Origin: Eledone cirrhosa
Lineage: Eukaryota
Length of the DNA stretch: 64,000 bases
Assembly (NCBI GenBank): GCA_964016885.1
Contig: OZ024742.1
Span: forward strand, 245,458,001-245,522,000
Direction: 5' to 3'
A program made the position numbers and the translations under genes. The notes beneath the pieces were generated by a model. It had not been told where the DNA came from, did not search any database, and worked only from the letters and a program-made list of their open reading frames with translations. Shown here piece after piece: positions 60,648 to 61,675 of the stretch; within the stretch, counting starts at the first letter, position 1, and the number at the start of each line of letters is the position of its first letter.

Positions 60648-61675
60648 ACAATTAAGTTAAAGATGTACATCCATATATGTATACTGAAATACTAGTATGT
60701 ATATGAATACACACACGTATACATATGTAGATGTACCAAGTTTTTTCACTGGTCACTTTACTGTGAGTGGCCAGCTATTCTGTATGTAAACACACAGACA
60801 AACCGGTTTTTAGAGTCATACTGGTTTTTGAGGAAACACCTTTCCTCTATTCTCCAGAAAGCCAGACAAGGAATATTGAACTAGTTTCGTTGTTGTTACA
60901 ACTCATCAGCAATATTTACCTATCTTCCGGCCTCTCTAGAGAATCGTAAAAGCACATATCGTTATATGCTTTTTCTATGAAAATTAGTAGTGGGCAGACT
61001 AATTTGCATAGAGTGTGAGTAAGTACCGGTTCAACGGAGACGATAAAAACAAATAACGAAACGAAATTAAACTTCGTTTCGTTTGTAACTCACTTTTGTA
61101 TGACTGACGCTTAAACAATTAAGTTAAAGATGTACATCCATATATGTATACTGAAATACTAGTATGTATATGAATACACACACGTATACATATGTAGATG
61201 TACCAAGTTTTTTCACTGGTCACTTTACTGTGAGTGGCCAGCTATTCTGTATGTAAACACACAGACAAACCGGTTTTTAGAGTCATACTGGTTTTTGAGG
61301 AAACACCTTTCCTCTATTCTCCAGAAAGCCAGACAAGGAATATTGAACTAGTCTCGCTGCTGCTACAACTCATCAGCAACACTTACCCATCCTCCGGCCT
61401 CTCCAGAGAATCGCAAAAGCACACATCGCTACATGCCTCTTCCATGAAAACTAGTAGTGGGCAGACCAATTTGCACAGAGTGTGAGTAAGCACCGGCTCA
61501 ACGGAGACGACAAAAACAAATAACGAAACGAAACCAAACCTCGCCTCGTCTGCAACTCACCCCTGCATGACTGACGCTTAAACAATTAAGCCAAAGATGC
61601 ACATCCACACATGTATACTGAAATACCAGCATGTACACGAATACACACACGTACACATATGTAGATGTACCAAGC
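60648..61675 (-). mobile_element. Retrozyme-like tandem array, 2.2 copies of a 467-bp non-coding HHR unit; last segment A-to-G hypermutated
   Basis: Exact 467-bp periodicity (e.g. 60767 vs 61234); abuts (TA)n. Confidence 0.85.
60872..60916 (-). ncRNA. Canonical minimal type I hammerhead ribozyme
   Basis: AATATTG-CTGATGA-GTTGT aaca ACAAC-GAA-ACTAGT-T-CAATATT; 7-bp stem I, palindromic stem III; predicted cleavage between 60879 and 60878. Confidence 0.85.

What the first reader, a model, noticed from the sequence alone, without database searches (positions are those of the whole stretch)
61115..61360. The hyper-edited tract stops at the hammerhead cleavage site, suggesting arrays are built from separate self-cleaved monomers
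Seen: 61115-61345 is identical to 60648-60878 with no edits. The predicted HHR cleavage point is 61346/61345, and the first edit is at 61353 with dense edits after it. Inference: rolling-circle copying of one circular RNA would give the same edits in every pass. The boundary instead points to a template jump by the (probably PLE) RT from one HHR-cut monomer to a different, edited one, or to ligation of edited and unedited monomers. Editing would then serve as a barcode for template molecules.
Basis: partly seen in the sequence, partly recalled or inferred. Interest (0 to 1): 0.85.

Follow-up and report, generated by a model that had tools for sequence, protein, structure and literature searches.

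The report
RNA-edited hammerhead retrozyme copies in DNA
This is one insertion of a very abundant 467-base repeat with a predicted self-cutting hammerhead ribozyme, in which one copy carries 43 A-to-G changes likely made by RNA editing before it was copied back into DNA; across the genome such edits mostly repeat identically from copy to copy, so the arrays were likely copied round and round a single RNA circle rather than stitched from separate pieces, and this locus is an exception.

Summary
Observation confirmed: 61115-61345 is identical to 60648-60878 (0 of 73 T changed), the predicted hammerhead cut is 61346/61345, and 43 T>C changes with ADAR context run from 61353 to 61654. The repeat is a non-LTR retrozyme (5,263 hammerhead motifs genome-wide) inserted with Penelope-like architecture: two inverted arms, fixed starts at unit positions 165 and 233-248, (TA)n flanks. 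The general inference fails. In 139 loci, arm ends are not enriched at the cut (12 of 230 within 10 nt; 10.3 expected). Private edits repeat in all passes in 10 of 15 edited loci, often in both arms. Tract boundaries do not cluster at the cut (3 of 17 others; 1.8 expected), and two tracts cross it. One mosaic array has joins compatible with the cut, another excludes it. Here a second, edited RNA was likely used, but the edit boundary fixes the template junction only to 61188-61352. The barcode idea works and supports rolling-circle copying. A>G on the ribozyme strand makes up 32 of 58 template-borne private changes, so editing is likely the family's main heritable mutator. New variant of a known kind.

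The parts
60521..60647 (.). (TA)n microsatellite, left flank and likely target site
60648..61674 (-). Left arm: 2.2 tandem copies of the 467-nt retrozyme unit; ribozyme-sense RNA is the minus strand; arm starts at unit position 234
60648..60878 (-). First partial pass, unedited (unit positions 237-467)
60879..61345 (-). Complete unedited monomer between two predicted cut sites; 100% identical to copies at other loci
60872..60916 (-). Minimal type I hammerhead, intact; palindromic stem III; predicted cut 60879/60878
61339..61383 (-). Second hammerhead; predicted cut 61346/61345; its 5' half is edited, including core A14 at 61353
61353..61654 (-). Hyper-edited tract, 43 A>G on the ribozyme strand, ADAR-type context; no second copy of this pattern found in the genome (best other match 88%)
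61188..61352 (.). Interval within which the change from the unedited to the edited template can lie
   Evidence: inference from last and first edited unit positions
61677..62274 (+). 1.13 units of a 530-nt tandem repeat that forms the 5' end of a LINE with endonuclease and RT domains; captured between the arms, oriented as a continuation of the right arm's cDNA
62275..62788 (+). Right, inverted arm: 1.1 unedited units starting at unit position 165; its hammerhead (62448-62492) has a G5A change at 62457
62784..62979 (.). (TA)n microsatellite, right flank

Best explanation
This is a two-armed insertion of a 467-nt hammerhead retrozyme, likely written by a Penelope-type reverse transcriptase that normally copies round one RNA circle and here likely switched, after 1.5 unedited units, to a second molecule that ADAR had likely hyper-edited after ribozyme cleavage. 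Shown: tandem and inverted structure, the A>G tract and its context, fixed arm starts, (TA)n flanks, repetition of private edits through passes and arms at other loci, and capture of LINE 5' repeat sequence at this locus. Inferred: self-cleavage at GUU, circular RNA templates, ADAR as the enzyme, a long perfect duplex (fold-back from inverted arms or antisense RNA) as its substrate, the Penelope RT, and an in-register switch somewhere in 61188-61352. On this reading the tract stops at the cut because the edited RNA ended there when it was edited, not because arrays are built monomer by monomer.
For: Rolling circle as default: 46 of 71 loci with at least 4 passes have no segregating marker. In 10 of 15 loci with at least 6 private T>C and repeat coverage, most edits occur in every pass: L089 14 of 14, L159 16 of 17, L069 11 of 11, L141 9 of 9, L161 8 of 11. 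The edit motifs searched for L089 and L161 occur at no other locus, so they were not simply inherited from a source array in this assembly. 46 of 74 informative two-arm loci share a private variant between arms. Arm ends show no excess at the cut. Switching exists: patterns change mid-array in L061 and L135, joins in L091 lie at 140-178, and this locus captured LINE sequence. Cut before editing: A14G occurs in only 2 units genome-wide against 5,263 motifs, and 87% of the boundary probability lies within 10 nt of the cut. Edits ignore the monomer's own fold (14 of 42 edited sites predicted unpaired). Penelope-like architecture: 215 of 226 arm starts at two positions, 72 of 81 two-arm loci with one of each, 174 of 216 starts in TA-rich flanks, matching the inverted copy, one-sided tail and (TA)n bias described in 10.1101/2021.04.23.441226.
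Against: The window sequence cannot tell an RT switch from copying across a ligated junction. L166 interleaves edited and unedited units with joins in 438-106, which contains the cut and excludes both RT start sites (same-unit linkage 14 of 14); that favours unit-wise RNA joining. 25 of 71 long loci are heterogeneous, some with clear DNA-level duplication (period 8 in L145). L105 shows that an uncut linear transcript with its flanks can be edited across the site and inserted. No Penelope copy carrying this unit as its terminal repeat was found among 30 endonuclease loci. The tail here is about 70-80 nt, not the 30-40 described.
Confidence: 0.45

Rival explanations
1. RNA-level ligation in trans: a cleaved, edited monomer was ligated at the cut to unedited monomers, giving a trimer or longer RNA that the RT copied without switching. 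The palindromic stem III would place one monomer's 3' end beside another's 5' end (double-hammerhead geometry, recalled), and A14G would lock the junction.
For: Perfect register at the cut. Period-2 and period-3 haplotype patterns in L110, L138, L061, L135, L142. L166 alternates an edited and an unedited unit with joins in 438-106. PMC7229834 reports linear and circular dimers as minor RtcB products in vitro. Cofolding predicts intermolecular pairing through stem III.
Against: Needs at least a trimer here, since pass 1 is unedited at 246-309. Periodic patterns also arise from incompletely cut transcripts of mixed arrays or from DNA duplication. L166 has 4 switches inside units, and its repeats are not independent events. 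L091 excludes joins at the cut.
Confidence: 0.25
2. One uncut linear multimer transcript was partly double-stranded; the duplex, and so the editing, ended near the hammerhead by chance, and A14G prevented cleavage there.
For: L105 is hyper-edited across the cut and into both (TA)n flanks, which points to an uncut read-through template. Other tract ends fall at many positions. No template change is needed.
Against: About 4-5% chance of ending within 10 nt of the cut. The downstream intact hammerhead would also have to stay uncut. No source locus explains a duplex over exactly 8-309; the locus's own inverted arm is unedited and would pair 61043-61556.
Confidence: 0.15
3. One reading: arrays are assembled from separate linear self-cleaved monomers by end-to-end RT jumps at each cut.
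For: This boundary; L166; upper bounds of tracts in L169 and L166 at 438-463, next to the cut.
Against: No excess of arm ends at the cut. Unique edit patterns repeat through up to 4-5 passes and both arms. Arrays of about 70 units share one marker. Linkage across the cut in L091. Boundary test not significant (30% of rotations do as well).
Confidence: 0.07
4. DNA-level patch: gene conversion, or cDNA-mediated repair, copied an edited segment into a previously uniform array.
For: DNA-level duplication and conversion-like patches are seen in older arrays (L145, L166 unit 7, L045).
Against: No donor with this edit pattern (best other match 88%; the motifs with several edits match only this copy or different patterns). 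The left arm has no post-insertion change besides one at its start, so it is young. The tract sits at the arm's end, where a last template would be.
Confidence: 0.06

Closest known systems
Metazoan non-LTR retrozymes (Cervera and de la Pena 2020, PMC7229834; Li, Clavereau and Pollet, 10.64898/2026.07.22.740005)
   Same: Non-coding tandem repeats with one type I hammerhead per unit, low GC, thousands of dispersed copies, dimers to about 70-mers; proposed circular RNA template and PLE RT.
   Different: Unit of 467 nt is a little above the 170-400 nt described in the 2020 paper (within the 51-972 bp of the 2026 preprint). Minimal palindromic stem III. Stereotyped two-armed inverted insertions with two fixed starts, and A>G-edited genomic copies, are not described in the parts of those papers I read; the 2020 paper names RNA editing only as a possible cause of circRNA heterogeneity.
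Penelope-like element insertions (10.1101/2021.04.23.441226)
   Same: Partial tandems, adjacent inverted 5'-truncated copy, tail on one end only, (TA)n target bias, minimal hammerheads.
   Different: No ORF. Tail about 70-80 nt rather than 30-40. The autonomous partner was not identified.
APOBEC DNA editing of retroelements (PMC2873906)
   Same: Clustered single-type substitutions fixed in genomic retroelement copies.
   Different: Here the change is A>G on the RNA strand with ADAR context and is made before reverse transcription; there it is G>A from cDNA deamination.
Amphibian satellite-2 dimeric hammerheads (as summarised in PMC7229834)
   Same: Short stem III predicted to need a dimer for efficient cleavage.
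   Different: Activity untested here; dispersed young insertions.

Membership tests
Non-LTR retrozyme | Type I hammerhead in each tandem unit | tested here: met
   Rfam HH9 E 2.2e-7 but under the gathering score; 99.3% of cells paired and 6 pairs with two-sided changes in 11 hand-picked, related sequences, half of the signal from one paralog; U17/C17 exchange and the stem II 12/23 compensatory change in 232 units
Non-LTR retrozyme | Head-to-tail tandem units of a few hundred bases, dispersed, no LTR/PBS/PPT layout, no ORF role | tested here: met
   467-nt period; 5,263 motifs on many contigs; arms bounded by (TA)n. Coding capacity of the unit was not scanned separately
Non-LTR retrozyme | Self-cleavage at the predicted site | not testable with these tools
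   Only indirect: core positions are rarely changed
Non-LTR retrozyme | Expressed as linear and circular RNA | tested here: inconclusive
   Genomic evidence only: A>G tracts imply an RNA stage and repeated private edits imply circles; no direct RNA data
PLE-mobilised element | Inverted truncated copy, one-sided tail, microsatellite target | tested here: met
PLE-mobilised element | Sequence shared with the terminal repeat of an autonomous PLE | tested here: inconclusive
   Of 30 endonuclease loci with 1.5 kb flanks, only L200 (a related retrozyme behind a TA tract) and one weak hit matched; 150 matches were scored of 48,441 candidates
Autonomous PLE | ORF with RT and GIY-YIG endonuclease | tested here: not met
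   The insertion is made only of the 467-nt unit and a LINE 5' repeat
ADAR hyper-editing product | Dense single-strand A>G with 5' U/A preference and 5' G avoidance | tested here: met
   42 of 66 against 1 of 32, 0 of 15 after G; no other substitution in the tract. The neighbour rule is recalled
ADAR hyper-editing product | Long double-stranded substrate | tested here: inconclusive
   Edits do not follow the monomer fold; 83 two-arm loci offer fold-back stems, median 492 nt; the actual partner was not found

The most novel reading that the evidence does not exclude
Retrozyme oligomers are assembled in trans from separately cut and separately ADAR-edited monomers, an RNA-level recombination guided by the dimeric hammerhead. 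ADAR is the main mutator of the family's heritable sequence. The same Penelope-type machinery writes both ends of a broken (TA)n target from one RNA circle and also retrocopies ADAR-edited (UA)n RNA, producing strand-polarised TA/CA and TA/TG microsatellites.
Probability: 0.25. Interest if true: 0.85.

Novelty: new variant of a known kind. Interest (0 to 1): 0.6.

Why it matters
Rolling-circle reverse transcription of retrozyme circles by PLE enzymes is proposed in the literature but, in the papers read, not shown. Here RNA edits fixed in DNA act as single-molecule barcodes: they indicate repeated passes over one template, use of the same template for both inverted arms, oligomeric templates and occasional switching. 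That makes the poorly understood PLE integration mechanism testable from genome sequence alone. It also points to A-to-I editing as a germ-line mutator of a mobile element: 32 of 58 template-borne private changes against 12 of 163 single-pass changes. The specific claim of assembly at the cut site matters less, as it holds at most for a minority of loci.

Tried and rejected
Rfam at gathering level: no ribozyme; miRNA and snoRNA hits are AT-rich hairpin noise. Self-locus fold-back as the editing substrate: rejected, the inverted arm is unedited and would pair a different span. Monomer or dimer circle for this locus: rejected, pass 1 is unedited at 246-309. The 530-nt insert as a second ribozyme circle: no hammerhead core motif; it is a LINE 5' repeat. 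Clustering of tract ends at the RT starts (165, 238): 3 and 4 of 18, no better than at the cut. Pairwise linkage scan over all mosaic arrays: mostly uninformative because of periodicity, alignment artefacts at poly-T positions and duplicated private mutations; only L091 and L166 localise joins. Search for the PLE partner: none among 30 loci; the 99-aa remnant has no Pfam match. Expression: no RNA holder listed. Contigs of four runs of unrecorded kind hold the family, and one shows TA-flanked ends at both start sites, but it may be the source individual and gives no evidence on RNA. Earlier findings of the scan: none returned. The search for edited copies was partial: it sampled about a dozen motif positions and 139 loci, not all arrays.

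Full report
OBSERVATION. The window holds 2.2 copies of a 467-nt unit at 60648-61674. 61115-61345 is identical to 60648-60878, with 0 of 73 T changed. The first difference is 61353, and 43 T>C follow up to 61654 with no other substitution in the tract. On the minus strand they are A>G, with 5' U or A in 42 of 66 sites and 5' C or G in 1 of 32 (p 2.5e-9), the ADAR preference (recalled). The minus strand carries a minimal type I hammerhead: Rfam HH9, E 2.2e-7, below the gathering score. Its stem III is the palindrome ACU/AGU and its predicted cut is GUU|C at 61346/61345. In 11 hand-picked sequences, including one paralog, 99.3% of cells pair and 6 pairs change on both sides; these sequences are related, so this is support, not proof. 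A two-state model puts 87% of the tract's boundary within 10 nt of the cut. The first edit is core A14; that A14G inactivates hammerheads is recalled.

ANATOMY. Below, unit position 1 is window 60879. The locus reads: (TA)n; left arm from position 234; 598 nt of another repeat; inverted right arm from position 165, unedited (3 differences); (TA)n. The insert is the 530-nt 5' tandem repeat of a LINE with endonuclease and RT domains. It is oriented as a continuation of the right arm's cDNA, so this event likely changed template at least once apart from the edited tract.

FAMILY. The hammerhead motif occurs 5,263 times in the 3.0-Gb assembly. I analysed 139 loci including the window. They came from similarity searches, from the first rows of motif lists, and from motifs that demanded one or two T>C, so the set is enriched for edited copies. 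Six fetched stretches were left out as duplicates, continuations or empty (L080, L092, L129, L131, L132, L167), as were loci overlapping larger fetches. Arms start at 165 (113) or 233-248 (102) of 226, and 72 of 81 two-arm loci have one of each. 174 of 216 starts have TA-rich flanks. In 84 loci the arms mostly meet within a few bases; this window's 600-nt gap is the outlier. This matches the inverted copy, one-sided tail and (TA)n bias of Penelope-like elements (10.1101/2021.04.23.441226, passages). No autonomous partner was found among 30 endonuclease loci.

(1) If templates were linear monomers, RT should often stop at their 5' ends. 12 of 230 arm ends lie within 10 nt of the cut, 10.3 expected; within 25 nt, 31 against 25.1. 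End trimming at the arm junction could blur this. (2) Barcodes: of 15 loci with at least 6 private T>C and repeat coverage, 10 carry most edits in every pass (L089 14 of 14, L159 16 of 17, L069 11 of 11, L141 9 of 9, L161 8 of 11, L087 6 of 8, L108 6 of 10, L122 5 of 6, L081 2 of 3, L086 2 of 2). Three are mosaic (L166, L091, L107) and two single-pass (the window; L104, whose double cover is a misaligned tail). The motifs searched for L089 and L161 occur at no other locus, and both carry the edits in both arms. 46 of 71 loci with at least 4 passes have no segregating marker, and 46 of 74 informative two-arm loci share a private variant between arms. (3) Boundaries: I took the 18 internal tract boundaries with 90% intervals up to about 80 nt, one per locus and side, dropping wide ones (L089, L141, one each of L161 and L087) and arm ends. 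Four reach within 5 nt of the cut, or 3 of 17 without the window, against 1.8 expected; 30% of rotations do as well. Tracts in L105 and L161 cross the cut. (4) Mosaic arrays: in L166 edited and unedited units alternate irregularly, with markers linked within the cut-defined unit (14 of 14) and joins in 438-106, though four switches lie inside units. In L091 markers are linked across the cut (15 of 15) and change at 140-178. Passes within an array are not independent, and older arrays show DNA-level duplication (L145).

WHAT HAPPENED HERE. A monomer or dimer circle is excluded, because positions 246-309 are unedited in passes 1 and 2. No genomic donor has the pattern (best other match 88%). The edited molecule differs only at 8-309, so the template junction can lie anywhere in 61188-61352; the edit boundary marks where editing stopped, not where templates joined. 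A14G is found in 2 units genome-wide, which suggests that circles must come from cleavable RNA and that this molecule was cut before it was edited, or never cut here. Edits ignore the monomer's predicted fold (14 of 42 edited sites unpaired), so a long duplex was likely needed. Head-to-head arms offer fold-back stems (median 492 nt in 83 loci), and PMC13445718 (abstract and opening) reports that sense-antisense duplexes are rarely edited, which favours fold-back. I commit to an in-register RT switch onto a second RNA edited after cleavage (0.45), over trans ligation into a trimer or longer (0.25), an uncut partly duplexed transcript (0.15), monomer-by-monomer assembly (0.07) and DNA conversion (0.06).

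EDITING AS MUTATOR. In 45 loci not chosen for T>C (top similarity hits and first-listed loci, hence mostly young), private substitutions shared by all passes are 32 T>C and 6 A>G of 58 (p 1e-5 for that pair). Single-pass substitutions show no such bias (12 T>C of 163).

LITERATURE. PMC7229834 (passages; Discussion in full) defines metazoan non-LTR retrozymes, proposes that RT makes tandem cDNA from circles, names PLEs as likely helpers, and mentions RNA editing only as a possible source of circRNA heterogeneity. Its supplementary model figure was not seen and may bear on the mechanism. 10.64898/2026.07.22.740005 (parts 1-3 of 5) links animal retrozymes to PLE terminal repeats; the text I read does not treat edited copies or two-armed insertions, and its supplements were not seen. 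PMC2873906 (passages) covers G>A DNA editing of retroelements. Searches for A>G-edited genomic retrozyme or retrotransposon copies (listings only) returned nothing that describes this; the library lacks most subscription journals, so this is not proof of absence. That the genome looks like an octopus's is a recalled impression, not tested.

VERDICT. The element is a non-LTR retrozyme by structure and arrangement; cleavage and circles are untested. New variant of a known kind; interest 0.6.

Noticed in passing
L105 / L129 (G000:C28, about 60,889,800-60,892,900): A monomer with 54 private T>C is edited across the cut. Its (TA)n flanks carry about 40% T>C (CA 120, TG 0 on the left; CA 122, TG 0 on the right) and further right flip to a TG-dominated TA tract, as if edited (UA)n RNA were retrocopied in two arms.
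   Followed up: partly
139 family loci: Arms start at unit position 165 (113) or 233-248 (102) of 226; 72 of 81 two-arm loci have one of each; arms mostly meet with a few bases of overlap or gap.
   Followed up: partly
L166 (G000:C2:95,687,900-95,695,200): Array interleaving a unit edited at 313-437 with several unedited subtypes in a roughly period-5 order.
   Followed up: yes
L091 (G000:C5:63,088,000-63,095,500): Mosaic array whose haplotype blocks span the cut and change at 140-178, which includes the RT start at 165.
   Followed up: yes
window 61677-62274; L126, L127: A LINE with endonuclease, RT and PHD-like finger carries 530-nt tandem repeats at its 5' end, with variable starts at TA tracts; L126 has its ORF in two frames. 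The RTE-clade label is recalled.
   Followed up: partly
window 58111-58407 (+): Broken endonuclease-like reading frame, GIY-YIG/Penelope-type by recalled motif, no Pfam hit; at least 150 genome matches, one in an 819-aa open frame at C3:79,460,916.
   Followed up: partly
L200:1-890: A second, related hammerhead retrozyme family (GUA triplet, same stem III palindrome) as two inverted arms beside a Penelope-like remnant.
   Followed up: partly
G000:C2:204,670,000-204,702,300: An array of about 70 units, all with the same marker; the 20 or so units read are identical.
   Followed up: no
window 60296-60367 and 60417-60510: An inverted pair of another repeat just left of the TA flank, seen by eye.
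   Followed up: no
window 17601-18694: 13 copies of an 84-nt tandem repeat, 95% matches.
   Followed up: no
window 21725-21782 (+): Partial tRNA-like match, probably a SINE head.
   Followed up: no
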